This document shows, piece after piece, positions 10,512-49,350 of a stretch of DNA of 64,000 bases (its first letter is position 1; each line of letters begins with the position of its first letter). Location of the stretch: contig NW_003314284.1 of assembly GCF_000143415.4 (NCBI RefSeq), forward strand, positions 434,001 to 498,000. Direction: 5' to 3'. A program made the translations under genes and the position numbers. This DNA is from Selaginella moellendorffii (Eukaryota; Plantae; Lycopodiophyta). The notes below the pieces were generated by a model. That model did not search any database and was not told the DNA's origin. It saw nothing but the letters and a program-made list of their open reading frames with translations.

Positions 10512-10584
10512 TTCCGTTGCCGGGAATTGAACCCGGGTCTCTCGGGTGAGAGCCGAGTATCCTGACCGACTAGACTACAACGGA
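10512..10584 (-). tRNA. tRNA-Glu(CTC)
   Basis: TCCGTTGTAGTCTAGTCGGTCAGGATACTCGGCTCTCACCCGAGAGACCCGGGTTCAATTCCCGGCAACGGAA: 73 nt, full cloverleaf, T4 run downstream. Confidence 0.97.
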
Positions 10585-19899: not shown

Positions 19900-19904
19900 G
19901 CGGG

Positions 19905-19947
<43 letters not shown>

Positions 19948-19972
19948 GCGTGTTCGATCCACGCTCACCGCA
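19900..19972 (+). tRNA. tRNA-Phe(GAA)
   Basis: GCGGGGATAGCTCAGTTGGGAGAGCGTCAGACTGAAGATCTGAAGGTCGCGTGTTCGATCCACGCTCACCGCA, canonical plant cytosolic tRNA-Phe. Confidence 0.98.
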
Positions 19973-32830: not shown

Positions 32831-32937
32831 AACGTCGTCCTCGTCCCGCAGCTCTCCTCACCAGGCAGGCAAGTTTCCAAGTTCTCGTCTTTTCTTCCTC
32901 ACCAAGCCGAGAGTTTTTTGTTTTTCTCCTTAGGAGA

Positions 32938-33378
32938 ATGGCCGGCAGTGCGAAGCTTTTGGGCGTGGCAGCGCTGCTGCTGCTGGTGCTCGTCGCGGTG
33001 GCGGACGCGAGGAGGCAGTCCCCGGCGTCGAGGCGGTGCCGGGAGCTGGCACAGCAGCTTCAGAAATGCGAGAGCATCACTCCTCTCCCGCAGGAGTGCT
33101 GCAGCATGGCCGACGAATACCGTCGCAAGTGCCGCAGCAGCTCTCGCGGCAGGAGAGCCCGGATTGACGAGGAGATCCTCGACCGCTGCCGCGACGAGCA
33201 TCGCCGCCGCCAGGACGAGCTCGATGAGGACGACGACTTCTTCGTTGGCGACAGCGATGGTGATGAGGTCCACCACTACAGTTAAGCAAGTTCTCTTATT
33301 TTTCTCCTTAATCTTTGTACGAAACTTTGGCGTCTAAATGATTTCTTCCTTGCAGATCAGAGGAGCGGATTTTTCTGA
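32938..33378 (+). CDS. Small secreted 6-Cys protein (prolamin/LTP-like scaffold) with acidic tail
   Basis: Signal peptide MAGSAKLLGVAALLLLVLVAVADA, Cys pattern C-x9-C-x9-CC-x9-C-x18-C, Asp/Glu-rich tail. A probable intron 33281-33355 gives ..YNQRSGFF*; unspliced, the ORF ends at 33285. Confidence 0.7.
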
Positions 33379-33581
33379 AAAGATGGATCTCGCAGTGAAG
33401 AACACAGTAACACCGATAAGTAGTAGAAGAATAACGTGTTACTCTCGCTTTTAATTTAATTAAAACCTTATACAATCACCTTCGCGGTTTTTGTTTGAAT
33501 CTAGACCGTTGGATTTGGTTGTCGTTACAACTGTAGGGAGTGGAGCTCAGGAACCCTCCAGGATTGTTGGAGGCCGTCGCC

Positions 33582-34770
33582 ATGGACGACTACGTGATGC
33601 ATATGACGCGCGTGAGCTTGCTGGACCAGCGGCTCGAAGAGAATCCTCTCAATGCCAAGGTAATCGCATCTATAGATCGATCGAATCCACTGGGAAATCT
33701 TCGATCAATCAGGTCAAGAAGCTTGTGATCAGCCGGATGATGTACGCTGGGAGAGCGGTCAAGGAGACGGACAAGGAGCGAATGACAAGTAGTCGAATAG
33801 ATTCTTTTCACTCCAAATATATCTCCTTTCTTTCGCAGATTATCACCAGGAAATGCTCCACAAGATCGCTGGCAAACTCGACAAAGTCTCTGGCTTTCTT
33901 CTCATCTATCCGACCTGTTGTCTACATTTGGTCGAGGTAGAGATTTTTCTTTTTTTTTCTCGATTCAAATCTTTGATCCACAGGCCGAGACTGTGATCTT
34001 GATGCAACTTCTCAAGAATTTGCATGCTGACACCCGGCACCTCGATTCAGTTTGCCTTCTCTCCTTCACGGAAGATGTGAGGCTCAAGTTCTAGCTATCC
34101 TTCTGTAGAAACTTATGGTTTTTCTCTGTTAGAACTGTCCAGGTGCCATACCGTTCTTTCACGAGCTGGATGACGGGGTTTATAAACTCGTCAAACATGG
34201 GACCTTACGATCCTCATCCGAAAAACAGCCTACTTACAGCGGTAAGTTGTAGCAAACCATCGGATTCGTGAGAGACGTTGGCGTTTCTCTCCAGGTCTCC
34301 GAGCTGAATGTTAATATGCTGAAATGGGGAAGGCAGCTATCGGAAATGGACGAGGTACGCTCCTTTTCTATTTTTCCGATGCTTTTTCTTTGTGGATTGA
34401 TTTTTTTGGTTTGCTCAGGAACAAAGATTGGTTTCACTCGATTCTGTCCGGACAGCTGCCGAAGAGCTTCTTCCTGATGATGCGGGAGTTATAAGTGGAA
34501 GTAAGTAGTAGTTTCCGTTACTTTGGCTAAAATTCCTCGCAGTTATTTTGGCCGAAGATGCTCCCAAGCTCAAGGACGTTCTGGAGCTGTATGATCAACC
34601 TCTGGATGACATGATATTTGATGCAGATATCCTTTATTTTTTCTTTCAGTTTTACTACATGCTTTTTCTTGACAGAATCTTCACAGCTTGTATGGCCCAA
34701 ACCAAAAGCACCATTTTCATTGTCCCCACCTACAATATATTTCACTCCACCTGCATCTCAAGCTGCTTGA
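33582..34770 (+). CDS. BLUF-fold flagellar protein, DYBLUP/MOT7/TEX47-like, 9 exons, 251 aa
   Basis: Exons 33582-33659, 33713-33788, 33839-33936, 33984-34076, 34143-34241, 34295-34354, 34419-34500, 34543-34626, 34685-34770 join in frame: ISRMMYAG..VSGFLLIYPTCCLHLVEA..LHADTRH..SFTEDVPYRSFTSWM..DAELVWP. Confidence 0.8.
34627..34684 (+). other. U12-type AT-AC intron (58 nt)
   Basis: 5' site ATATCCTTT, branch site TTTTCTTGAC (34664-34673), 3' end TCAC 12 nt after the branch A. Removal restores the frame to ELVWP. Confidence 0.88.
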
Positions 34771-35949
34771 ATATGTAACTAGCTAAAGCAATAAGTTTAT
34801 GAATTTTCATTTTTATTTGTATAGGTAAATATTTTGTGTTCTTTATTTATTATTGATATATAATAAAAAAATGTAAATAATTTATAATAAAACTAATTTT
34901 ACTTTATATTAAATTTAATATCAATGATTGCTATTTTGATGATTTAAATCTTAGTATGGGTTTTTTTAATTAAAGTTATTAAATTTTGTTATTTATTCTT
35001 ATAACATTATTTTTCTACTAATTTGAGCTGAAAGTTTTATTTTCTAATTTTTATCTCTAAAAAAAATTGATACCAAAAAAGACATCTATATTAAATAATA
35101 AATCACTGGAAGAAACTTCAAAATAAATATTTACACAATATCATTTCTCTATCAATATATATTTGTAATTATTATATTACTTATACATCTATATACATGT
35201 ATTTATAGAAGACAGCTAAGGTCCTTTAGTTGAGGAATCTAAAGGAACATTAAGAGGAGGCATTAGTGGATTTGTAAGCAATGCAATTTGTTCATGATCA
35301 CTTTGTACAAAGTGCTTTAGCTGCTATACATGCATAATTTCTAGAGGATTTATTAATTGAACGTCGTGTTAAACCTCATAAATTTGCAGTCCAACTTGCC
35401 ACAACACTCAATATAGTTCCTTCCACTGAGTAAGAAGCCCCTGAAACAAACTATAAAATTGGGAAAATGAACAAACATTAAATCATTCATGTAGTGTATG
35501 TAGTTTTCACCCTTTACCCTATAATGATTTATTATATGATAACTACAAACGCTTGGACATATAGGAAGGTAGTAGAGTGGAACTAGACCCTTTATTAGTC
35601 CTTAACTCGGCATTCTCTCTGCTGCGATTGCCGAGCTTGTGCTAGTCCGAATTGGAAACCTTGAGGAGGGATTTTGTGCCGAGGGCTGGGTTATTGGTTG
35701 CAATGATGTCTACTAGCACCAAGGTACACACTATATTTCTATATCAATTTGATCTGACGAGTGTATCTTTAACTCTCCTAGAAATAGAGGTTACTCTCGA
35801 AGAAACAAAGTAGGATATGTGTATGTATTGTGTGAAGACTGTTCTACATACATGTCCGTCAAGATGCACTTGCGGGTACTCTCTTTGTACTTTTGCATGC
35901 AAGAATTTTTCAGATTTCAAGCACAAACACTTGCAATTGGGCAATTTTA

Positions 35950-36289: not shown

Positions 36290-38107
36290 GTGTCTTACAC
36301 TGGCTAGTGACAAAAACCTTGGTGGTGTCATAAGTATAAGGATAGAATTTCTAAGTGTTATTAGCGAAACATACTTAACCTGGTAAGGAGTTTAAATCTT
36401 GTTGTGTCTTATACTGGCTAGTGACAAAAACCCCTGTAATATTAAACTTGGTACCTTAATATTTACTACACCAAGAAACTCTCACTATCATTACCAAATG
36501 TGTTAGTTCCATTTAGTGTTGACCATTGTGAGCACCAATTTAGTGCCACTCCATATTTAGTAAATTTTCGTGATTGTTGGGCCACAAGTGGGACCATAAC
36601 AACACTATAATTTATTATTGTCCACCTTTGGAGTAATGAAATTGTCAGCCTTTATTAGTCCTTCTTATGCTAGTGAAATTGTCCTAAATATGATGGTGTT
36701 GTGACTAGATTTGTTAGCTTCCACTATCTGACTATGTCTTACACTGGCTAGTGACAAAAACCCTAGTGGTGTTATAAGCATAAGGATAGAATTTCTAAGT
36801 GTAAGCATGTTTCATTCTTTTCTAAATTTGCTAATCTATAGAATGTGGAAATTGTCTTGAACATGATGGTGTTGCTCTATCAGTTTTGCGGATAACTCTC
36901 CAGCTTAGATAGTGTCTTTGTCAAGGTGAATGCTGACATGGGTGGAAGATTAGACTCCACGTCTAGGCAATGTCATGCTGCCCGTAGAAAAAGTTTTCTA
37001 TGCTCACAATCCTGGAATTGACAAGTAAGTTGGCCCCTTTTTTTTTGTTTTTTTTTTCTAACCATCTATAGAAACCATCTATAGAATGTGGAAATTGTCC
37101 TGAACATGATGGTGCTGCACATATATCCCTTATACTTACCTTTACCCTTAAACTTTAGAAATGCTCTAGAATCTTTAATGAACATTCCCCGGCAAAGCAT
37201 ACAAGTACGACCAATCAAAGTCATGGATTCTTGTTTACAGAGAAAGCGACCACCAGCTTTCTCCTTGTTTCTCCCCTGGCACAGCGGTGGCTGGAGCAAA
37301 CCAAGGATTGCAGCAGCTCAGGTAAGAGGAGGTATCAATCTTAGATGGTCTGCCCGAGGTTTGGTTGAGTGTATAAAGTGAAAACTAAGAGTGAGGGATT
37401 TGCAACCCTAAAGAGCAGCAACACCTCCTTGTTTCTCCCCTGGCACAGCAGTGGCTGGAGCAAACCAAGGATTGCAGCAGCTTAGGTGATCTAGTGCCAC
37501 TTCATATTTAATACATTTTCATGATTGTCTCAGAGACTAACTTCTAGGACAAGGTGAAAGCTTTTGTTGTGGAATGTATTGTTCCCACATTCAATTTTGA
37601 GCCACTCCAGCCATTACAGCGGCCATTTGATAGGATCTCCAACTAGATGACTTTACTCTAGATGTGTTTCCCATTAGCTATTTATGAAAAGTGTAAAAAT
37701 TGATGGCTTTTCAAACTATTGACCACTTAAGTGTCTCTTATTTTATTTTATTTTCCTTTGCAATGAAGTACAATGTGATAGATTGTCGGATGGCTGATAG
37801 TTTGTCGGCTGGTCATTGAACGTTATCTCTCAGTGCGCTTGGCGGTTATGTACCGGCAGCTGCAAACAAAATTGGAGCAAGATTCCCATTAACTATTTAT
37901 GAAAAGTGTCTAGATCTGCTAATCTATAGAATGTGGAAATTGTCTTGAAAATGATGGTGTTTTTGCCTCACCTTTTTCTCCAAGTGGATTTCTTTTGGGC
38001 TTTACTTGGGCTCCCAGATTTCCCAACTCGTCAAGAACAACTAGATAAATCAAAAGATCATCTAAATTTCCACATTCCCAATACATCGTTAGCAACAATC
38101 CTTCCAT
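36290..38107 (+). repeat. Left arm of a shuffled inverted-repeat mosaic (modules recur inverted at 39765-39942 and 47470-49350)
   Basis: ~37640-38052 is approximately the reverse complement of ~47827-48230; 36330-36520 of ~48870-49115; 36580-36636 of 49289-49346. Internal direct duplication 37260-37325 / 37425-37488. Confidence 0.8.
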
Positions 38108-38109
38108 GG

Positions 38110-39736
38110 AGGCAAAAGCCAAATGAGTGTAACACATTTGGACTAAAAGCTTCAACTCGAAAAGTCGAGAGTGGGAGTGGAACTCTTAACGAAGGGCTCG
38201 AGGAACAAGCACGAAGCAAGCAATAAGTGAGTCTCAAAAAAAAGGGACATGAGAGGACCAACATATGACACATAGAAGAGTTCAAGATGGAGTTTGAGAT
38301 GGACTCGAGATGGACTCGAGATGGAGTTCGAGATGGACCCAAGATGGAGTCTGAGATGAAGTCCGAGATGGACCCAAGATGGAGTCCGAGATGGATTCGA
38401 GATGGAGTTTGAGATGGAGTTCAAGATGGACCTGAGATGGACCTGAGATGAAGTCCGAGATGGACCCGAGATGGAGTCTGAGATGGACCCGAGATGGAGT
38501 CCAAGATGGAGTTCAAGATGGAGTCTAAGATGGAGTTCAAGATGGACCCGAGATGGAGTTCAAGATGGACCCGAGATGGATCTAAGATGGAGTCTGAGAT
38601 GGACCTGAGATGGAGTCCGAGATGGACCTGAGATGGAGCCCAAGATGGAGTCTGAGATGGACTTAAGATGGAGTTTGGGATGGACCCGAGACNNNNNNNN
38701 NNNNNNNNNNNNNNNNNNNNNNNNNNNNNNNNNNNNNNNNNNNNNNNNNNNNNNNNNNNNNNNNNNNNNNNNNNNNNNNNNNNNNNNNNNNNGTTCCAAA
38801 GGTATAGTAGGGAGAGTGTGGGTTGGAGCCCAGTGGAGCTAGTTTGGCCAGGAAAGGCCAATTTGGTATACCTAGGTGTTGGGTGATGAGTTGACCACTA
38901 GGAAGTCCAAGATTAGAGTGAATATGGATTGATAAGTAAAGTAGCTTGGTGAAGTGTTCAAGAGCAGGCTCTAGTTCCCTCGGGAGATCGAATAGTCAAT
39001 GCTCCCAGTCCAAGCATGGGTAGCACTACCTACTTGGATACCTAGTGTGGCTCATTAGAACCTCACTCTAAGCCCATGGCTAGAGCACCCAAAGGTAGAA
39101 GGCGAGGAGAGTACCCACGAGGCTTGCGTAAGGCCGCAGTGTTCTGAAATGTTGTTTTAGAATCTCGGATGGTGAAAAGGAAGAGGAGTAGTCCTCTGGT
39201 GTAGTGACCAAGGATGCGGTCACATGACAAGGAAGTCCTAGAGAACAAGGGGACTTAGTGGTCAGGCCTATGGGCCTTGATCTAGTGGTAATGTTGACAA
39301 ACACAACTATGGACAGAAAGGGACTTGGTGGGGACTGAAAAAGAGATATTGAGGAAAGCTATTCCCCATGTTTGTGGGCATCCTAAGGATGCTAAGGAGT
39401 GGATTTGGGATGATCACTCATGGACGGATGGCCTAGTCTTTGAGAGACGAGACTGTGATGCAGGTGGTGTTAAACCACCGGTGTGAACAAGGTGAATGGG
39501 CATAGCTTTAGCGTAACAGGCTGATATGTCAGTGGTACCTTGGAGTGTTGGTTATGGGATTGAACACATGGAGCACTTGGACCAAGTGCAAAAGTTGAGT
39601 GGCATGGATGCCATTCTCGGGGCTAGCAAGCCCCAAGTCCTGAATTGGACTTATGGAGGTTGTGAATGAGACTTTTTCAAGTGGTTAGAGGTGTGATTAA
39701 GTGACTAAAGTAGAATGGAAAAATTAGTTGCTTACA
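38110..39736 (+). mobile_element. Older solo LTR, 5'-truncated, same family as the adjacent intact element
   Basis: Colinear with LTR 39943-41664 from about position 66 to the terminal TTACA. Many CG>TG/CA changes; no PBS after it; contains gap 38693-38792. Confidence 0.88.
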
Positions 39737-39942
39737 ACATAACAATTTCACTAAGTTCTCTACACTAATCACGAAAATTTACTAAATATGGAGTGGCACT
39801 AGATTGCAAAATTGAATGTGGGAACAACTCCATCATATTCAAGATAATTTCCATATTCTATAGATTAGCAGATCTAGACATTTTTCATAAATAGCTAATG
39901 AGAAACATATCCAGAGCAAAGTCATCCATTTTAAGCTTCACC

Positions 39943-41664
39943 TGTGAGACACAAAATCCCTAGGCCCCAAAGTGGAGCCGGAAGGGTGCCACGTGGTAGT
40001 GGCCGAAGCGAAAGCCAAACGAGTGTAACACGTTTGGGCCAAAAGCTCTGACTTGAAAGGTCGAGAGCGGGAGTGGAACTCCTAACGAAGTGCTCAAGGA
40101 ATGAGCACAAGGCGAGCAATAAGCGAGGCTCCAAAAAGGGACCCAAAAGGATCAACACATGACACGGGGAAGTGTTCGAGATGGACCCGAGATGGACCCG
40201 AGTGGAGTCCGAACTGGAGTCCGAGAAGGACCCGAGATNNNNNNNNNNNNNNNNNNNNNNNNNNNNNNNNNNNNNNNNNNNNNNNNNNNNNNNNNNNNNN
40301 NNNNNNNNNNNNNNNNNNNNNNNNNNNNNNNNNNNNNNNNNNNNNNNNNNNNNNNNNNNNNNNNNNNNNNNNNNNNNNNNNNNNNNNNNNNNNNNNNNNN
40401 NNNNNNNNNNNNNNNNNNNNNNNNNNNNNNNNNNNNNNNNNNNNNNNNNNNNNNNNNNNNNNNNNNNNNNNNNNNNNNNNNNNNNNNNNNNNNNNNNNNN
40501 NNNNNNNNNNNNNNNNNNNNNNNNNNNNNNNNNNNNNNNNNNNNNNNNNNNNCGAGACCGAGATCGGGACCGAGACCAAGACCGAGGCCGAGGCCGAGAC
40601 CGAGCCCGAGCCCGAGCCCGAGCCCAAGCCCGAGTCCGAGTCCGAGTCCGAGTCCGAGTCCGAGTTTGAGAGGGTGAAAGCCCAAAGCGTTCGTCTCCCA
40701 GACCCTGGGGGGTTTGGTGAGCTCCAAAAGTATAGTAGGGGGAGGACTGCAATGGAGCCAGTTTGGCCAGGAAAGGCCAGTTTGGCCCAGGAAGGCCGGA
40801 CCCAGTGTTGGGTGATGAGCTGCCCACTGTGAAGTCCAAGACTAGAGTGAACACAGACCGACAAGTGGGGTAGCTTGGTGAAGTGTTCAAGAGCTGGCTC
40901 TAGTTCCCCCGGGAGATCAACTGGCCGATGCTCCCAGTCCAAGTGTGGGTGGCACTACCTACTTAGATACCTGGCGTGGCTCAACGGAACCTCGCTCTAA
41001 GCCCATGGCTAGAGCACCTAAAGACGAAAGGCGGGGAGAGTACCCATGAGGCTTGCGTAAGGCCACGGTGTTCCAAAATGGTGTCCCAAAGTCCCAGACT
41101 GTGGAATGGAAGAGGGGTAGCCCTCTGGTGTGGTGACCAAGGACACAGTCACACAGTGAGGAAGTCCTAGAGGATAGTGGGACTTAGTGGTCGGGCCGGT
41201 GGGCCTTGATCCAATGGCAGTGTTGGCGAACACAGCCAAGGACAGAAAAGGACTTGGTGGGGACCGGAACAGAGATATTGGGGCAGGTTATTCCCCATGT
41301 CGGTAGGCATCCTAAGGATGCTAAGGAGTGGATCGGGGATGATCCCTCATGGACGGATGGCCCAGTCTTTGAGAGACGGGACTGTGGTGCAGGTGGTGTT
41401 GGACCACCGATGTGACCAAAGTGATTGGGCATGGCCTAGCGTAACGGGCTGGTATGTTGGTGGTGCCTTGGGGTGTCGGTCATCGGACCGGACACGTGGA
41501 GCACTTGGACCAAGTGCAAAGGTTGAGTGGCATGGATGCCAGGCTCGGGGCTAGCAAGCCCCAAGCCCTGAGAGGGACTTATGGAGGTTGTGAATGAGAC
41601 TCCTCCAAGTGGTTGGAGGTGCGGTTAAGTGACTAAAGTAGAATGGAAAATTTAGTCGCTTACA
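39943..41664 (+). repeat. 5' LTR (contains assembly gap 40239-40552)
   Basis: Starts TGTGAGACACAAAATCCC, ends GTCGCTTACA. Confidence 0.93.
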
Positions 41665-41667
41665 ATT

Positions 41668-41679
41668 TGGTATCGGAGC
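41668..41679 (+). other. Primer-binding site for initiator tRNA-Met
   Basis: TGGTATCGGAGC, 3 nt after the LTR; one mismatch to canonical TGGTATCAGAGC. Confidence 0.88.
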
Positions 41680-44150
41680 TGTTCCTTAGTCCGACTTTTA
41701 TTGGTGCTCAAGTATATCACCACTGGTGTTGGCATCAGTAGGTCTGAGGAGTGGGCCTATCCTTGAGGAGTAGCAGGTCGGGAAGACATGGCTCTCCATT
41801 ACAGTTCATGTGTGAATTTGTAGACAAGGTGGTGGATAGAAAAGGGCCAATAATGGAACGACTTTGGGATCTTGGGAACAGTGCAAGGTTTTCCTCCTTG
41901 AGTTGAGGATGTGATCCAGATGAGCGTTTGACTTAGCAAACTGGCTAATATAGTTGTGGTAAATAACTATAGTTGGGATCACGGGAAANNNNNNNNNNNN
42001 NNNNNNNNNNNNNNNNNNNNNNNNNNNNNNNNNNNNNNNNNNNNNNNNNNNNNNNNNNNNNNNNNNNNNNNNNNNNNNNNNNNNNNNNNNNNNNNGGAAG
42101 AGGACACAAGTCCTTGAAATGGTAGCCAGTGCTACCTCTAATAAATGCTGGAATAACCCAAGGAGTTGGGGGTGTACTTAGAGGATGAGTTGGTATTCTC
42201 ATCACATGGACAAGTGGTCCTAAGGGGCAAAAGGTTGCCCCAAGAGAACAAATCAAGTGTCGGAGTAACACTTGCAAATATGGTCCTTGTGAGTAGGACC
42301 TGAATACAAGAAGTTGTATTCCAGCGAGTTGACACCTCAAAGACTAAGACCTCGCAGGTCATTGGATTAGCAAAGTCTAAAATGCTAGATGACTCAAGTG
42401 GAGTTGGGGAATGGTCCTAAGGGATTGGTCGAAGCATTTGGACGGAGGTGTATGATGCCCCATGAGGTATGGGGAGGATCATAAGATCCAAGTATGAGAA
42501 CAATGAGTATCTCATTGATGGCAGAATGTGCCACATTAAAGTCGTGGGAAAGATGTTCCCAGAAGAGAGCAACTTTGGCCCAGAGTCGGGTGCAAACACT
42601 ATAGTGCGGTGCTAATGGATAGTTAGCATGAGGAACAACTATATTAGTCTTGGCAAAGACCTAAACACTAATAAGTAGTGTTATAAGAATAGGCTCATGG
42701 AGCCGATGGTGTGGAGACACCGAAGGTGCCAAGGCGGGTTGCCTTGAGGTCAAGTTGGCGGGTTCATGAAAACCCTGTCCAAAGGAATCCCAATGGAAAT
42801 GGGAATGGCATGGCCTAAGCTGGAAGGCATGCGGTTAGAGTGGGGTGACCCAGATAATGATGGAGGTGTGGAAGCACCGAGCAATGAGTTGTAGTACTTG
42901 ACAAATATGGGGCAACTAAGCAAGAGGTGCAAGATAATTGGTTAAATGGGTAGAAAGTAGCTACCCAAGACTTCTTAATGGCATAAAGAAGTTAGATATA
43001 CCCTTACGGGGGATAAATTGCTTATGTTGCAATATAGTAAATCAATGTCGTAAACGGGAATGCTCATTGTCAAGAGGCCATCATTGGGACACCCAAACAC
43101 TCTAGAACACCAGGAGGTGGTGTTTCGTGTCGCAAGGGCCATAAATAGGGCCCAAGGGACTAAGTCCCTAGCGAATGATGGATAGTAGGTGCTATCCAAA
43201 TGTCCAAGGTTGTGGAGACAGGAGAAGACTGTCTACCCGAATTGGACAAATCCAAAAAATGGAATTTTGGCAAGGCTAGTGATGGGCATGTAAAGGCCTA
43301 TAAGCAGCAACGTTAATCCCGATATATGGGATTATAAGGTGAGCATGCCCAAGATTGAGGAACCACTCCCTATGCTATTGGGTAGGTTCATCCCTAAAAA
43401 TACTTGCTAAGGCATAGTAAAATGTGCAAAGCTATCCTCCTAGTCTGGAGGAGAATAACTAAAGGAAACATATGGGGCCAAAAGGCAAGTAATATTGGGA
43501 TGGAACTGAACCATAGAAATCAAAGGGCATATCCAACAGTGGTTATGAAAGTTGGGAGTGGAGAATCAAGAGGGTGCTCGAGGATGTTGTTGCTAGCAAC
43601 CGTGATGCCATGGAGAGTCTAAAATATGGAATTGTCCATGTTAGACTATATGGCAACTATAAAGCTTGCGAAAAGGGAGGCCTTAGCAAACTGAGGGACA
43701 GAGTTCCTTCAAGGTTCCCAAAGATGATTCTAGGTAGCGTAGTACCTAGAAAGGCCAAGTGTAAATGGTTCATGGAACACGCGAAATCAGAGTGGCGCAG
43801 TAGAAGCGTGGTCTTGAAGCTTGCCATGAGGCAAGGTTATCAAGGTTAGGGAAGTAGTTCCCGAGTGTTCAAAGAGAGGGCTTTGAATGAAAGTCGATGG
43901 TCAAGGACTTTCACGCTTATGCAGGAACCATGTTACAGTGGTCGGAGGACTTGCCAAGTGAGATTGGCACGTCGGGGGAACAAAAACCCTAGTTGAAGGT
44001 GATAACTTCAAAAAGGGTGGGCCATGGGGCCGAGCATGGAGGAGTCCATGCATGATCACAGACATGTCAAGTGAGAGGACTTGGCAGTGTGGAGGAACTA
44101 GGTTCCTAAGCTGTGATCTGTAGCGCGCTTTAAATATAAGTTGGTGCACC

Positions 44151-44262
44151 GGCGTGGGGAGTCACGCCAGGCATCTTATGTGATGCCGTCCGTAGATGCA
44201 TATACGGAGGTTGGGTTCGAGTCCCGACCCTCTAGTGCTTGGGTTCGAGTCCCAAATCACTA
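44151..44262 (+). other. Five back-to-back RNA hairpins in the internal domain of the LTR element
   Basis: GGCGTG/CACGCC, GGCATC/GATGCC, TCCGTA/TACGGA (loop contains palindrome ATGCAT), GGTTGGG/CCCGACC and TAGTG-TTGGG/CCCAA-CACTA, the last two with TTCGAGT loops. Confidence 0.7.
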
Positions 44263-45719
44263 AGGCGTGGTGATGGTTTGGAATATGAGGACACTCATAT
44301 TTCGGTGGTCATGGACTCTCAGTGGGGAGACTGGTTTGGGCACACCGCCAAGCGAGGGATGCCTCGGAGTCGTGATGCACGGTTAGACTGCTTAGTGTGA
44401 AAGCTCAGCATATCTAACTTGAACGCTTTGGTGCAAGTGGCACCAAGGTCATGGTGAGTGAGATGGGGACACCTAATCTTAGTTGCTATGAACCCTTGGC
44501 CGTAAGGGCTAGCTTGGGTGCACCGCCAAGTGTGGGGGATGCCCCCGGGGTTATAGTCAACAACTTGGAGGTCTAGAAGACCAAGTACCTCTTGGCAACT
44601 CTGTTAAGGTGCCAAGGTGAGATCACTAGGTGATCTTATGGCCAGATAAGGACAAGGTCCTTGGTTGGCTAAGGAATGAAGTTCCTGGTTCAAAATGTTG
44701 AAATTGAACTGTTTAAGGTGGTGTGGCTTGGTCGTGATGACCAAGTGGGAAGAGCACCTAAGGGAAATAAACTATGTCCGTGCAATGGCATAGTGAGTCC
44801 GAGGAAAGTAGTCTCTATAAAAGACCCATGGGAGGGTCACGAAGTTGGGCCGTGGATAGAGCCCATAGCAGAAGATGCTAAAGAGACGTACTAGGGGTGA
44901 ACATCCTCCGGACTTGGCAAAGAAGAGTCTTTGCTATGGAACCGAAACAATACCTCAAGGAGGGAGGTAGAGATTCGATGTTGCTTGGTGCAACAATCAA
45001 CGGATAGGAGCAAAAGATGAGTGGCCAAGATAGGGCCGTGGAATCCCTTGGAAGGAATCCAAGTGACAAAGTTAGGCGAGGAACACTAATGTGTTGGACG
45101 CTAACAAGTTGCGGGAAAGGAAGTGTGTTTCCAAGGAGGGATTCCAAAATGCTTCGATTTGGCGAAAGTGGAAGCTCCAAGGGAGGGAGCGGTAAGGTAG
45201 CCAAATGATAGGGCCATGGACAGCCCTAGCACAAAGTATGATAAATGGAATTTAGTGCCCAAGGTGGCACGAAATAGAAGAGAGGATGATAGTGCCCTCA
45301 AGTAATGAACTTCCCAGGATGGGGAAGTGGGGTTGCACAATCTGTGCAATGCAAGGTGTTGGAGACACCTAGGAAATTAACTTCCAAAAAGTCAAAAGAG
45401 TAAAAGTTCCAAGGTGCAAACGTTCAATAGATAGAAATTGAGACTACTCGAGAAGGAGTAGTGGGATTGACTTAGAGAAGGGCCTCTAAGAGGTTTAGCG
45501 GGAACTAAACTAATAAAAGGAGAGAACCATTACATGTGGTCCAATCAGTCTCTAAGTTGGAGAGACTACGCTCCTTAAAGGATGGACAAGGCATGGTGAG
45601 CCTTTGGTGTCAAACCATAGATAAAGATTGGCTAGGTGCCAAGGATGGAAATGGTAACACGTGTGGGTGTTACTTTATGAAAGGGTTACCGTTCGATGAG
45701 GACATCGAACTTCGTCTAT

Positions 45720-45731
45720 GGGTGGTGGAGT
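45720..45731 (+). other. Polypurine tract
   Basis: GGGTGGTGGAGT immediately 5' of the 3' LTR. Confidence 0.75.
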
Positions 45732-47465
45732 TGTGAGACACAAAATCCCTAGGCCCCAAAGTGGAGCCGGAAGGGTGCCACGTGGTAGTGGCCGAAGTGA
45801 AAGCCAAACGAGTGTAACACGTTTGGGCCAAAAACTCTGACTTGAAAGGTCGAGAGCGAGAGTGGAACTCCTAACGAAGTGCTCAAGGAATGAGCACAAG
45901 GCGAGCAATAAGCGAGGCTCCAAAAAGGGACCCAAAAGGACCAACACATGACACGGGGAAGTGTTCGAGATGGACCCGAGATGGACCTGAGTGGAGTCCG
46001 AACTGGAGTCCGAGAAGGACCCGAGATGGAGTCCGAGGTGGAGTCCGAGTTGGAGTCCGAAGTGGAGTCCGAGTTGGAGTCCGAAGTGGAGTCCGAGATG
46101 GACCCGAGATGGACCCGAGATGGACCCGAGTTGGAGTCCGAGATGGAGTCCGAGATGGAGTCCGAGATGGACCCGAGATGGATCCGAGATGGAGTCCGAG
46201 ATGGACCCGAGATGGATCCGAGATGGAGTCTGAGATGGAGTCCGAGATGGAGTCCGAGATGGAGTCCGAGATGGACCCAAGATGGAGTCCGACCGAGACC
46301 GAGACCGAGATCGGGACCGAGACCAAGACCAAGGCCGAGCCCGAGACCGAGCCCGAGCCCGAGACTGAGACCGAGACCGAGCCCGAGCCCGAGCCCGAGT
46401 CCGAGTCCGAGTCCGAGTCCGAGTCCGAGTCCGAGTCCGAGTCCGAGTCCGAGTTCGAGTTCGAGTCTGAGAGGGTGAAAGCCCAAAGCGTTCGTCTCCC
46501 AGACCTTGGGGGGTTTGGTGAGCTCCAAAAGTATAGTAGGGGGAGGACTGCAGTGGAGCCAGTTTGGCCAGGAAAGGCCAGTTTGGCCCAGGAAGGCCGG
46601 ACCCAGTGTTGGGTGATGAGCTGCCCACTGTGAAGTCCAAGACTAGAGTGAACACAGACCGACAAGTGGGGTAGCTTGGTGAAGTGTTCAAGAGTTGGCT
46701 CTAGTTCCCCCGGGAGATCGACTGGCCGATGCTCCCAGTCCAAGTGTGGGTGGCACTACCTACTTAGATACCTGGCGTGGCTCAACGGAACCTCGCTCTA
46801 AGCCCATGGCTAGAGCACCTAAAGACGAAAGGCGGGGAGAGTACCCATGAGGCTTGCGTAAAGCCACGGTGTTCCAAAATGGTGTCCCAAAGTCCCAGAC
46901 TGTGGAATGGAAGAGGGGTAGCCCTCTGGTGTGGTGACCAAGGACACAGTCATACAGTGAGGAAGTCCTAGAGGATAGTGGGACTTAGTGGTCGGGCCGG
47001 TGGGCCTTGATCCAGTGGCAGTGTTGGCGAACACAGCCAAGGACAGAAAGGGACTTGGTGGGGACCGGAACAGAGATATTGGGGCAGGTTATTCCCCATG
47101 TCTGTAGGCATCCTAAGGATGCTAAGGAGTGGATCGGGGATGATCCCTCATGGACGGATGGCCCAGTCTTTGAGAGACGGGACTGTGGTGCAGGTGGTGT
47201 TGGACCACCGATGTGACCAAAGTGATTGGGCATGGCCTAGCGTAACGGGCTGGTATGTTGGTGGTGCCTTGGGGTGTCGGTCATCGGACCGGACACGTGG
47301 AGCACTTGGACCAAGTGCAAAGGTTGAGTGGCATGGATGCCATTCTCAGGGCTAGCAAGCCCCAAGCCCTGAGAGGGACTTATAGAGGTTGTGAATGAGA
47401 CTCCTCCAAGTGGTCGGAGGTGCGGTTAAGTGACTAAAGTAGAATGGAAAATTTAGTCGCTTACA
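45732..47465 (+). repeat. 3' LTR
   Basis: Same termini and near identity to the 5' LTR; gap-free copy. Confidence 0.95.
45965..46470 (+). repeat. LTR-internal mini/microsatellite (GGAGTCCGAGAT / GGACCCGAGAT 11-12-mers, then CCGAGN hexamers)
   Basis: Visible directly; also present in the other two LTR copies, where it coincides with assembly gaps. Confidence 0.95.
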
Positions 47466-47469
47466 TCAC

Positions 47470-49350
47470 CCTATCCTAAAAATTAGTCTCTGGGACAATC
47501 ACGAAAATTTACTAAACATGTATTAGTAGCTCATCATAGGATCACATTGAACATATTACCGACACAAATTCCTGGGGATGAGAAACAAGACTATTTCTAT
47601 CTTTGCCATGTGCTTCCTGCTTGTCTCTCCAAACTAGAGACAATAGCCCAGTACACATCCATTCTATTTAATTAGAATAGCTATAATGGGAAATATAGCT
47701 CGGCAATCGTGGAATGGACGTGCCTCTCTGCGTGCCCGGATTAACTTAGTTCCAGCACTAGACAAATCAAAAGAAGATCATCTGAATTTCCACATTCCTG
47801 ATGCATCACCAGCGACAGTCCTTCCATTGATTTTCTCTAGTTGTTCTTGATGAGTTGGGAAATCCAGGAGCCCAAGTAAAGTCCAGAAGAAATCCACCTA
47901 GAGAAGAGCTCTAAAAGGTGAGGCAAAAACACCATCATATTCAGGACAATTTCCACATTCTATAGATTAGCATCTAGACACTTTTTTATAAATAGTTAAT
48001 GGGAATCTTGCTCCAATTTTTGTTGCAGCCACCGGTACATGATTGCTGCGCACACTAAGAGGTAAATTTCGATGACCAACCGACAAACTATCACATTGTA
48101 CTTCACTGCAAAGGAAAATAAAATAAAATAAGAGACACTTAAGTCATCAATGGTTTGAAAAGTTGTCAATTTCTACACTTTTCATAAATAGCTAATGGGA
48201 AACACATTCAGAGCAAAGTCATCTATTTTAAGCTTTCACCCTGTCCTAGAAGTTGGTCTCTGGGACAATCATGAAAATTTACTAAACATGTATTAATAGC
48301 TCATCATAGGATCACATCGAACATATTATCGACGTAGATTCCTAGAGATAAGAAACAAGACTATTTCTATCTTTGCCATGTGCTTCTTGCCTATCTCTCC
48401 AAACTAGAGACAATAGCTTAGTACTTGTCCATTCTATTTAATTAGAATAGCTAATGGGAAACACAGCCTGGCAATCGTGGAATGGATGTGCCTCCCTGCG
48501 TGCCCGGATTAACTTAGTTCCAACATTCTACCACGTGGCACCCTTTCGGCTCCCCTTTGAGGCCTAGGGATTTTGTGTCTCACAGTTGTGTAGTGAACTT
48601 CTTCCGATAGTGCCCCCATTCAATTTTGCAATCTAGTGCCAGATTGCAAGTGTTGGTGATTGCAAAATTGAATGTGGGAACAACACTATCATGTTCAGGA
48701 CAATTTCCACATTCTATAGATTAGAAAATCTAGACACTTTTCATAAATAGCTAATGAGAAACACTAGAGCAAAGTCATTTAGTTGGAGATCCTATCAAAT
48801 GGCTGCTGTAATGGCTGGAGTGGCTCAAAATTGAATGTGGGAACAACAAATTCCACAATTAGAGAATGGGACTAAATAGAACTAACACATTTGGGAATGA
48901 TAGTGAGAGTGTCTTGGTGTATCAAATATTAAGGTACCAAGCTTAATATCACAGTGGTTTTTGTCACTGATCTAGATGACATTTGTTTTTTGTTTTTGTG
49001 TGTACGGAGTCACCCCCCGAAGCCCCAGCCAGTGTAAGACACAACAAGGTTTGAACTCCTTACCGGGCTAAATATGCTTCGCTAATAACACTTAGAAATT
49101 CTATCCTTATGCTTATTTGATTTAAGTACACTCAAAATGCCTAATTAACTCCATTAGCATAAGAAGGACTAATAAAGGGTCTAGCAATATTGATCTCTTG
49201 CTATTATGGCAGTAAGAGAATAATATTCAAAAGGGCTCACTAGCAAAATTTTCAATACATGCAGTCGTATTCATAATAATTCACTATATACTCCAAAGGT
49301 GGACGATAATAAATTGTAGTGTTGTTATTGTCCCATTTGTGGCCCAAGTG
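47470..49350 (-). repeat. Right arm of the inverted-repeat mosaic, including direct duplication 47470-47757 / 48240-48522
   Basis: Reverse-complement matches to modules of 35580-38107. Confidence 0.8.
48528..48584 (-). mobile_element. Inverted 57-bp 5' tip of the same LTR family
   Basis: Reverse complement reads TGTGAGACACAAAATCCCTAGGCCTCAAAGGGGAGCCGAAAGGGGTGCCACGTGGTAG. Confidence 0.9.

What the first reader, a model, noticed from the sequence alone, without database searches (positions are those of the whole stretch)
33582..34770. Hidden BLUF-fold (blue-light sensor-like) gene in a land plant: candidate dynein-associated DYBLUP/MOT7/TEX47 of flagellated sperm
Seen: the ORF track shows only scraps, but nine short exons splice into a 251-aa protein with BLUF landmarks in the correct order: beta1 RMMY (Tyr), VSGFLL, LHLVEA, DTRH and EDVPYRSFTSWM (R-x-F-x-x-W-M). 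The Gln of the canonical FxQxLEG motif is His here. Established: BLUF photoreceptors are mainly bacterial/protist, need the Tyr-Gln pair for the photocycle, and are not among the classical land-plant photoreceptor families. A BLUF-like protein (DYBLUP in animals, MOT7 in Chlamydomonas; I recall TEX47/C7orf62 as the vertebrate homolog) binds inner-arm dynein f/I1. Inference: this plant keeps that module for its swimming sperm, as a light/flavin modulator of the beat or as a structural relic.
Basis: partly seen in the sequence, partly recalled or inferred. Interest (0 to 1): 0.85.

Follow-up and report, generated by a model that had tools for sequence, protein, structure and literature searches.

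The report
Spikemoss TEX47/MOT7 sperm-tail tether gene
A nine-exon gene in a likely spikemoss genome belongs to a known family of flagellar proteins (TEX47/MOT7/DYBLUP) and likely links a dynein motor to its tether in swimming sperm; it has the predicted fold of a blue-light sensor but lacks the glutamine such sensors rely on, so it is probably a structural part and not a classical light receptor.

Summary
The gene model holds by homology, not by reads. Nine exons at 33582-34770 (+) give a 251-aa protein (249 with an alternative acceptor). It is 64% identical and collinear to a Selaginella moellendorffii model, and one exon alone passes Pfam TEX47's cut-off. The ortholog's best PDB matches are Chlamydomonas MOT7 and bovine TEX47 by sequence, and MOT7 by fold (Z 24.8, against about 10 for true BLUF proteins). 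Orthologs occur in Chara, liverworts, Sphagnum, lycophytes and ferns; none was seen in seed plants (incomplete search).

The photoreceptor reading is weak. His replaces the BLUF Gln in 77 of 98 family members, MOT7 and TEX47 carry it too, and two liverworts lack even the His. The signalling Met is absent. The 'DTRH' match is not conserved.

It is probably shared with ferns and liverworts, where it breaks 4 public gene models.

No spliced read was found in 8 runs. Databases already auto-label plant orthologs BLUF or TEX47. Verdict: new member of a known family, moderate interest.

The parts
33582..33659 (+). exon 1 (ATG; aa 1-26)
   Evidence: 62% to S. moellendorffii aa 1-26 by tblastn
33713..33788 (+). 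exon 2 (aa 27-51; strand beta1, Tyr37 codon at 33743); alternative acceptor at 33718 would start the exon at 33719 and remove 2 aa
33839..33936 (+). exon 3 (aa 52-84; helix 1, beta2, beta3; His81 codon at 33925 occupies the BLUF Gln site)
   Evidence: alone hits Pfam TEX47 PF24787 at 27.4 bits, cut-off 25; top PDB hits MOT7 and TEX47, weak
33984..34076 (+). exon 4 (aa 85-115; helix 2, beta4)
34143..34241 (+). exon 5 (aa 116-148; Arg119, Phe121, Trp124)
34295..34354 (+). exon 6 (aa 149-168; start of the C-terminal helical part)
34419..34500 (+). exon 7 (aa 169-195; alternative donor at 34495 possible)
34543..34626 (+). exon 8 (aa 196-223)
34627..34684 (+). intron 8: 58-nt minor-spliceosome (U12-type) AT-AC intron, phase 1; starts ATATCCTTT, branch-site-like TTCTTGAC at 34666-34673 with the branch A 12 nt before the terminal AC
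   Evidence: best of 33 candidates on a non-plant profile, gives an ungapped D-x-E-x-V-W-P family motif; branch consensus from PMC5932401; not shown by reads
34685..34770 (+). exon 9 (aa 224-251, TGA stop)
33722..34184 (+). genomic span of the BLUF-like domain (about aa 30-129)
   Evidence: AlphaFold2 model of the S. moellendorffii ortholog and its fold matches, mapped through the alignment

Best explanation
The locus is a nine-exon TEX47/MOT7/DYBLUP-family gene of a likely Selaginella species, and its protein is likely made in developing sperm, where it would sit at the centre of the CFAP43/CFAP44 tether and link it to the 1-beta motor of inner-arm dynein f/I1, as a structural BLUF-like fold without a classical photocycle.

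Shown here: family membership, placement in a land-plant clade with Chara as sister, the predicted fold (of the closest ortholog), and the absence of the Gln and Met of the BLUF triad.

Inferred from orthologs: position in the axoneme and partners.

Inferred from weak data: sperm-specific expression, and removal of the last intron by the minor spliceosome.
For: Sequence: 64% identity over 234 aligned columns to S. moellendorffii SELMODRAFT_406029. That ortholog hits Pfam TEX47 at E 7e-23, MOT7 8glv_D9 at E 8e-22 and TEX47 9fqr_H0 at E 5.5e-14. All 98 of 98 aligned members hit TEX47.

Fold: model pLDDT 91. Foldseek ranks MOT7 (TM 0.77), a Leishmania axonemal chain and bovine TEX47 ahead of all BLUF photoreceptors (TMq 0.33-0.40). 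VIA Z is 24.8 for MOT7 against 10.5 or less for BLUF.

Tree: window sister to S. moellendorffii, land plants SH-aLRT 99, with Chara 96 (quick tree).

Partners exist in such plants: DHC1/DHC10 and IC138/IC140 are kept in plants with flagellated sperm (PMC9237703).

Orthologs' role: MOT7 occupies the centre of the tether stellate (PMC10266980), TEX47 touches the f-beta linker (PMC11779644), and the mot7 mutant loses the 1-beta-tether link (PMC7909887).

Expression and selection: no reads on the gene in two raw RNA runs where the neighbouring gene is covered. Marchantia Mp1g16570 is low in thalli (0.53 TPM) and rises about 7-fold in a line where sperm genes also rise. All 3 of 3 exonic differences in one low-depth contig are synonymous, about 1.3% by chance.
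Against: No spliced read supports any junction in 8 runs laid; the only two contigs on the gene are unspliced, at depth 2.3. CFAP43/CFAP44 and the dyneins could not be looked for in this genome, since none is held. The fold was predicted for the ortholog, not for the window protein. The Marchantia rise is one of 584 up-regulated genes, enriched mostly for defence and cell-wall terms. No Physcomitrium, hornwort, cycad or Ginkgo ortholog turned up, although these have swimming sperm. Chlamydomonas MOT7 has the same His and is reported to affect blue-light behaviour and to bind flavin weakly, so a sensory role is not excluded. Gln-less BLUF variants can keep weak signalling (PMC4630285).
Confidence: 0.8

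Rival explanations
1. It is the same tether subunit but also a non-canonical sensor. A Tyr/His pocket would bind a flavin or flavin derivative and pass light or redox state to the 1-beta motor, steering plant sperm.
For: Tyr37 and His81 are kept together in 43 of 98 family members and in the lycophyte, Ceratopteris, A. capillus-veneris, Sphagnum and Chara sequences. MOT7 has the same pair, binds FAD/FMN weakly, and its mutant shows redox-dependent blue-light acclimation (PMC7909887). Non-canonical BLUF pockets can still respond to light.
Against: His is replaced by Cys in Marchantia and Val in Calypogeia, and Tyr is missing in 49 of 98 members, mammalian TEX47 included. The DYBLUP authors say flavins are unlikely to be the intrinsic ligand and that they have no evidence for light-driven change in animals. 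No flavin could be seen in the cryo-EM map, whose resolution was too low.
Confidence: 0.12
2. It is a canonical BLUF photoreceptor with a Tyr-Gln proton-coupled electron transfer photocycle, a new photoreceptor class for land plants.
For: BLUF fold (Z about 10). The family profile reaches bPAC at E 3e-9. Beta1 Tyr, Glu84, Arg119, Phe121 and Trp124 are in register. Some fern orthologs carry a precomputed PF04940 hit.
Against: Gln is absent (His); Gln63 is described as required for the photocycle (PMC4630285). The Met site holds Thr, and the Ser and Asn sites are not conserved. The closest ortholog scores 17 bits on BLUF PF04940 against a cut-off of 25. Only 1 of 98 members has both Tyr and Gln.
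Confidence: 0.02
3. The gene is a decaying relic, or has a job outside the flagellum.
For: No spliced transcript was seen. Intron 7 is very short (42 or 48 nt). Marchantia expresses the ortholog at a low level in thalli without visible gametangiophores.
Against: The open frame is intact over nine exons, conservation is 64% across Selaginella and 40-55% to ferns, liverworts and Chara, and 3 of 3 exonic differences are synonymous. No ortholog was seen in plants without flagella.
Confidence: 0.06

Closest known systems
Selaginella moellendorffii SELMODRAFT_406029 (N-terminal 232 aa)
   Same: 64% identical, collinear, sister in the tree
   Different: The public model is unnamed and runs on into about 200 unrelated residues, probably a gene-model fusion; the window's gene ends at 251 aa
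Chlamydomonas MOT7 (PDB 8glv_D9) / Ciona DYBLUP
   Same: Whole-length sequence and fold match (E 8e-22; Z 24.8 over 229 residues); same Tyr and His at the BLUF Tyr and Gln sites
   Different: About 24-27% identity; MOT7 has mutant and structural data, the plant protein has none; plant sperm lack outer dynein arms
Mammalian TEX47/C7orf62 (PDB 9fqr_H0; Pfam PF24787)
   Same: Same Pfam family, same His, same C-terminal D-S-E-x-V-W-P-type motif
   Different: 22% identity to warthog TEX47; bovine TEX47 has Phe, not Tyr, in beta1
BLUF photoreceptors (AppA, PixD/Slr1694, BlrB, bPAC, OaPAC; PF04940)
   Same: Five-stranded sheet with two helices; Tyr, Glu, Arg-x-Phe and Trp in register
   Different: No Gln, no W+2 Met, no conserved Ser, Asn or DxRH; carries an extra C-terminal helical half typical of TEX47; ortholog below the Pfam BLUF cut-off
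Plant U12-type AT-AC introns (e.g. CBP20 intron 4)
   Same: AT-AC ends and a branch site one change from TTCCTTRAY over its last eight positions
   Different: 58 nt, shorter than the 76-nt S. moellendorffii CBP20 U12 intron; splicing not shown by reads

Membership tests
TEX47/MOT7/DYBLUP (PF24787) | Pfam TEX47 score above the curated cut-off | tested here: met
   Exon 3 alone 27.4 bits against 25; ortholog 84 bits
TEX47/MOT7/DYBLUP (PF24787) | Whole-length homology to MOT7 and TEX47, BLUF-like N-terminal half plus helical C-terminal half ending in the VWP motif | tested here: met
   Window protein 183.7 bits over aa 8-232 on a profile without Chara and land-plant rows; ortholog against MOT7 and TEX47; fold
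TEX47/MOT7/DYBLUP (PF24787) | Vertical orthology within green plants | tested here: met
   Quick ML tree of 101 rows: sister to S. moellendorffii (91), land plants 99, with Chara 96; no bootstrap, careful search unfinished
TEX47/MOT7/DYBLUP (PF24787) | Restricted to organisms with motile flagella | tested here: inconclusive
   All named plant hits are from groups with swimming sperm and no seed plant was named, but only 12 of 30 looked-up proteins carried an organism name, and Physcomitrium, hornworts, cycads and Ginkgo were not seen either
TEX47/MOT7/DYBLUP (PF24787) | Binds the CFAP43/44 tether and the dynein f/I1 1-beta motor in the axoneme | not testable with these tools
   No genome held; no partner sequences folded
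TEX47/MOT7/DYBLUP (PF24787) | Expressed in flagellated cells | tested here: inconclusive
   No spliced reads in 8 runs of unknown tissue; indirect Marchantia data
BLUF photoreceptor (PF04940) | BLUF fold | tested here: met
   Ortholog model matches AppA, OaPAC, BlrB and PixD at Z 9-10.5, rmsd about 3-4.5 A
BLUF photoreceptor (PF04940) | Conserved Tyr on beta1 | tested here: met
   Tyr37 aligns with the bPAC RLVY Tyr through the family profile
BLUF photoreceptor (PF04940) | Conserved Gln on beta3, required for the photocycle | tested here: not met
   His81; His in 77 of 98 and Gln in 2 of 98 family members; requirement from PMC4630285
BLUF photoreceptor (PF04940) | Met two residues after the beta5 Trp | tested here: not met
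   Thr126; Met in 1 of 98; bPAC has W-A-M
BLUF photoreceptor (PF04940) | Helix-1 Ser and Asn that contact the flavin | tested here: not met
   His59 and Gly63/Lys64 at those offsets; Ser 9 of 98, Asn 5-6 of 98; the region aligns less securely
BLUF photoreceptor (PF04940) | Pfam BLUF score above the cut-off | tested here: not met
   Closest ortholog 17 bits against 25; no window exon hit BLUF; the joined window protein itself was not scanned
BLUF photoreceptor (PF04940) | Flavin binding and reversible red shift | not testable with these tools
   Needs purified protein
U12-type AT-AC intron | ATATCCTT 5' site, branch site 10-20 nt before the end, terminal AC | tested here: met
   ATATCCTTT at 34627, TTCTTGAC at 34666, branch A 12 nt from the end; the 5' consensus and spacing are recalled, the branch consensus is
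U12-type AT-AC intron | Junction seen in mRNA | tested here: inconclusive
   No read or contig covers 34348-34770 in 8 runs

The most novel reading that the evidence does not exclude
Land-plant sperm, which lack outer dynein arms, carry on their two-headed inner dynein a BLUF-derived sensor that uses a Tyr/His pocket and a flavin-like cofactor to turn blue light or redox state directly into a change of beat. That would be a land-plant photoreceptor or redox receptor outside the known families, and its production could be gated by a land-plant-wide minor-spliceosome intron just upstream of the family's invariant C-terminal motif.
Probability: 0.1. Interest if true: 0.8.

Novelty: new member of a known kind. 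Interest (0 to 1): 0.35.

Why it matters
It extends the dynein f/I1 tether-centre protein to land plants with swimming sperm. The DYBLUP paper's main text names only animals, Chlamydomonas, a chytrid and Paramecium as having clear orthologs with a BLUF domain.

It gives a ready test in Marchantia (Mp1g16570) or Ceratopteris of a disputed point: whether MOT7/DYBLUP senses light or is a scaffold. The family-wide loss of the BLUF Gln, and the loss of even the His in liverworts, argue for a scaffold. Plant sperm lack outer arms, so a knockout may show a clearer phenotype than in algae.

The AT-AC intron explains why several public plant gene models of this family end wrongly.

Tried and rejected
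RNA evidence: no RNA holder was listed by the run search. Eight of the 23 listed runs were laid. Three raw RNA runs, each read to about 12%, gave no read on the gene. Two runs gave one unspliced contig each at depth 2.3. The other three gave nothing on the gene. Tissue is unknown.

No genome was held, so copy number and partners could not be checked. No second copy lies in the window.

GT-AG or GC-AG readings of intron 8 were rejected: none is among the five best-scoring candidates, so all score at least 8.6 bits below the AT-AC model. 'DTRH' and 'W-M' were rejected as BLUF landmarks. Horizontal transfer from a bacterial BLUF gene was rejected: intron-rich gene, whole-length TEX47 architecture, tree following the plant phylogeny.

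A homodimer-plus-FMN complex prediction returned no verdict and is no evidence either way. The careful tree did not finish in two runs. The ESM Atlas look-up of the Ceratopteris ortholog returned TEX47 clusters and added nothing new. Rfam found only two tRNAs elsewhere in the window.

Literature searches without a plant TEX47/MOT7 study: DYBLUP or MOT7, BLUF + land plants + sperm + dynein, TEX47, Mp1g16570, BLUF + Marchantia. Supplement searches were blank for the Cycas genome (2 scanned files unread), Cycas sperm, Physcomitrium atlas and DUO1 papers. The DYBLUP paper's fig. S2C could not be read and may list plants.

Earlier scan notes held nothing on this family.

Full report
1. Observation. 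The region 33582-34770 on the + strand holds nine short exons separated by introns of 42-66 nt. Introns 1-7 are GT-AG. I tested the junctions with a profile built from 92 family members, leaving out the six Chara and land-plant rows. The protein scores 183.7 bits; the best of 1000 shuffles scores 3.5. For each intron I enumerated 13-33 alternatives, retention included. The model was best for 7 of 8. At intron 1 an acceptor 6 nt downstream scores 3 bits more and would give 249 aa. At intron 7 a donor at 34495 is 0.6 bit behind on this profile.

2. The last intron. No GT-AG or GC-AG pair is among the five best candidates. The best solution is a 58-nt intron, 34627-34684. It begins ATATCCTTT, has TTCTTGAC at 34666 with its A 12 nt from the end, and ends in AC. 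This is the signature of a U12-type AT-AC intron. The branch consensus TTCCTTRAY is from PMC5932401 (passages read); the 5' consensus and spacing are recalled. The 8-mer occurs 5 times in the window against 2.2 expected, so it is not rare by itself. It is expected about 0.001 times in a given 60-nt stretch, and here it falls exactly where it yields an ungapped match to the family's C-terminal motif. Among nine plant and Chara models that reach this point, five are spliced to the VWP motif. Four (three Adiantum, one Calypogeia) instead read D-I-L and then diverge. D-I-L is what reading into a G|ATATCCT donor gives, and the window's own read-through shows it too. I infer that the AT-AC intron is shared by liverworts, lycophytes and ferns; I could not see their DNA.

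3. Identity. Exon 3 alone passes the cut-off of Pfam TEX47; the other 8 exons do not hit it alone. A 40-residue open stretch around it found one protein, S. moellendorffii SELMODRAFT_406029, which is 64% identical and collinear over its first 232 residues. I used that ortholog, or alignments starting with it, for searches that need a whole protein. It hits TEX47 at 82-84 bits and BLUF at 15-17 bits, below the cut-off of 25. Its only strong PDB sequence matches are Chlamydomonas MOT7 and bovine TEX47. A 98-member profile adds a Leishmania axonemal chain and then true BLUF proteins, led by bPAC at E 3e-9. The AlphaFold2 model (pLDDT 91.2) matches MOT7 at TM 0.77 and Z 24.8, the Leishmania chain at Z 21.0, and BLUF photoreceptors at Z 10.5 or less. 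Bovine TEX47 is third by Foldseek but is not among the 50 rows shown by VIA.

4. Distribution. Named homologs come from Diphasiastrum, Ceratopteris, two Adiantum species, Marchantia, Sphagnum, Chara, Calypogeia, Mesostigma, green algae, protists and animals. The unindexed search found 200 proteins at E 0.001 or better and listed 150. I looked up 30 proteins, 12 of which carried an organism name. Of the nine hits at E 1e-30 or better, seven are named non-seed streptophytes, one is unnamed and fern-like, and one is unnamed and falls outside the plant clade in the tree. No seed plant was named. Physcomitrium, hornworts, cycads and Ginkgo were not seen either, and one search missed members of its own query, so the searches are lossy. 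In a quick ML tree of 101 rows (two truncated models left out) the window protein is sister to S. moellendorffii (SH-aLRT 91). It lies within land plants (99), with Chara as sister (96) (no bootstrap). The organism is therefore likely another Selaginella species.

5. Is it a photoreceptor? Mapped through the profile onto bPAC, the window protein keeps Tyr37, Glu84, Arg119, Phe121 and Trp124. It has His81 at the Gln site and Thr126 at the Met site, and no Ser or Asn at the helix-1 offsets. Across the 98 aligned members (chosen from about 160 for near-full length) the counts are: His 77 and Gln 2 at the Gln site; Tyr 49; Met at W+2 in 1; Tyr and Gln together in 1. DxRH is not conserved. A wider alignment of 161 gave His 120 and Tyr 69. 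MOT7 and TEX47 also have His. Marchantia has Cys and Calypogeia Val there. PMC4630285 (passages) calls Gln63 required for the photocycle and Met106 crucial for signalling, but notes weak residual signalling in variants lacking Gln or Tyr. A preprint reports light response in a BLUF domain with other pocket changes (10.1101/2025.05.05.652191, abstract and outline). In PMC7909887 (results parts 1-2 of 3, discussion, passages; supplements unavailable) MOT7 binds FAD/FMN weakly, the authors consider flavins unlikely to be the intrinsic ligand, and the mutant has a redox-dependent blue-light acclimation phenotype. So the protein is not a member of the BLUF photoreceptors, and a non-canonical sensory role stays open at low odds.

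6. Likely mechanism. MOT7 occupies the centre of the FAP43/FAP44 stellate tether (PMC10266980, passages). TEX47 is a sperm-specific tether subunit contacting the f-beta linker (PMC11779644, passages). Loss of MOT7 removes the tether link to the 1-beta motor. Leishmania LAX28 is needed for f/I1 assembly (10.1101/782888, passages). Land plants with swimming sperm keep DHC1 and DHC10 and lack outer arms; IC138/IC140 are reported in all of them but Ginkgo (PMC9237703, part 1 of 2). I infer the same role in Selaginella sperm. Each step after orthology is inference.

7. Expression. Of 23 runs listed, 8 were laid. In two raw RNA runs the upstream neighbour has spliced reads and this gene has none; a third gave nothing on 33400-35000. 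Two runs have one unspliced contig each at depth 2.3. One of these carries five differences: two intronic, and three exonic that are all third-position synonymous (about 1.3% by chance; a single low-depth contig). In PMC13190419 (passages and supplements) Mp1g16570 is annotated PTHR34035 testis-expressed protein 47 and rises from 0.53 to 3.79 TPM in a line where MpDUO1, MpPKAR and a radial-spoke gene also rise. It is one of 584 up-regulated genes, and a search of that table found one dynein heavy chain and no CFAP-labelled row. This fits sperm expression but is weak.

8. Novelty. The family and its BLUF-like fold are published. Plant orthologs are already auto-labelled BLUF or TEX47 in databases. 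Five literature searches found no study of a plant member. 10.1101/2021.07.25.453666 (passages) and PMC9023351 (passages and supplements) do not name it, and supplement searches of PMC12849711, PMC12851517 and PMC6290024 were blank. Fig. S2C of the DYBLUP paper, unseen, may include plants. The library lacks most subscription papers. Three things appear new here: the explicit land-plant clade, the family-wide count showing loss of the BLUF triad, and the AT-AC intron.

9. Verdict. Observation confirmed by homology; interpretation partly supported; new member of a known kind; interest 0.35. The most novel reading, a Tyr/His light or redox sensor on plant sperm dynein, has probability about 0.1 and would merit 0.8.

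Noticed in passing
window 32938-33420 (+): Upstream neighbour: an expressed, spliced gene (joints at 32866/32932 and 33280/33356-33358) for a small protein with a signal-peptide-like start, a C-x9-C-x9-CC-x9-C cysteine pattern reminiscent of prolamin-type proteins (recalled), Arg-rich segments and an acidic tail; no Pfam hit above chance.
   Followed up: partly
P0001 (SELMODRAFT_406029), residues 233-436: The public S. moellendorffii model continues into about 200 residues with no counterpart in the family, probably a gene-model fusion; weak aldolase-like hits there are below cut-off.
   Followed up: no
P0004, P0006, P0007, P0187: Three Adiantum and one Calypogeia gene models lose the C-terminal VWP motif at D-I-L, as expected if the annotation missed the AT-AC intron.
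   Followed up: partly
PDB 9y6s_7M: A Leishmania tarentolae axoneme chain labelled 'Tudor domain-containing protein' is a whole-length TEX47-family member by profile (E 2e-16) and fold (Z 21); probably LAX28 or a paralog.
   Followed up: no
window about 39900-41000 and 45700-46800: Two near-identical repetitive segments with long open frames on both strands, in a G-skewed region (about 38000-48000) with three N gaps; likely a repeat or transposon.
   Followed up: no
window 10512-10584 (-) and 19900-19972 (+): Two tRNA genes.
   Followed up: no
P0141: The only one of 98 family members with both the BLUF Tyr and Gln; unnamed, and on a long branch among animal-like rows.
   Followed up: no
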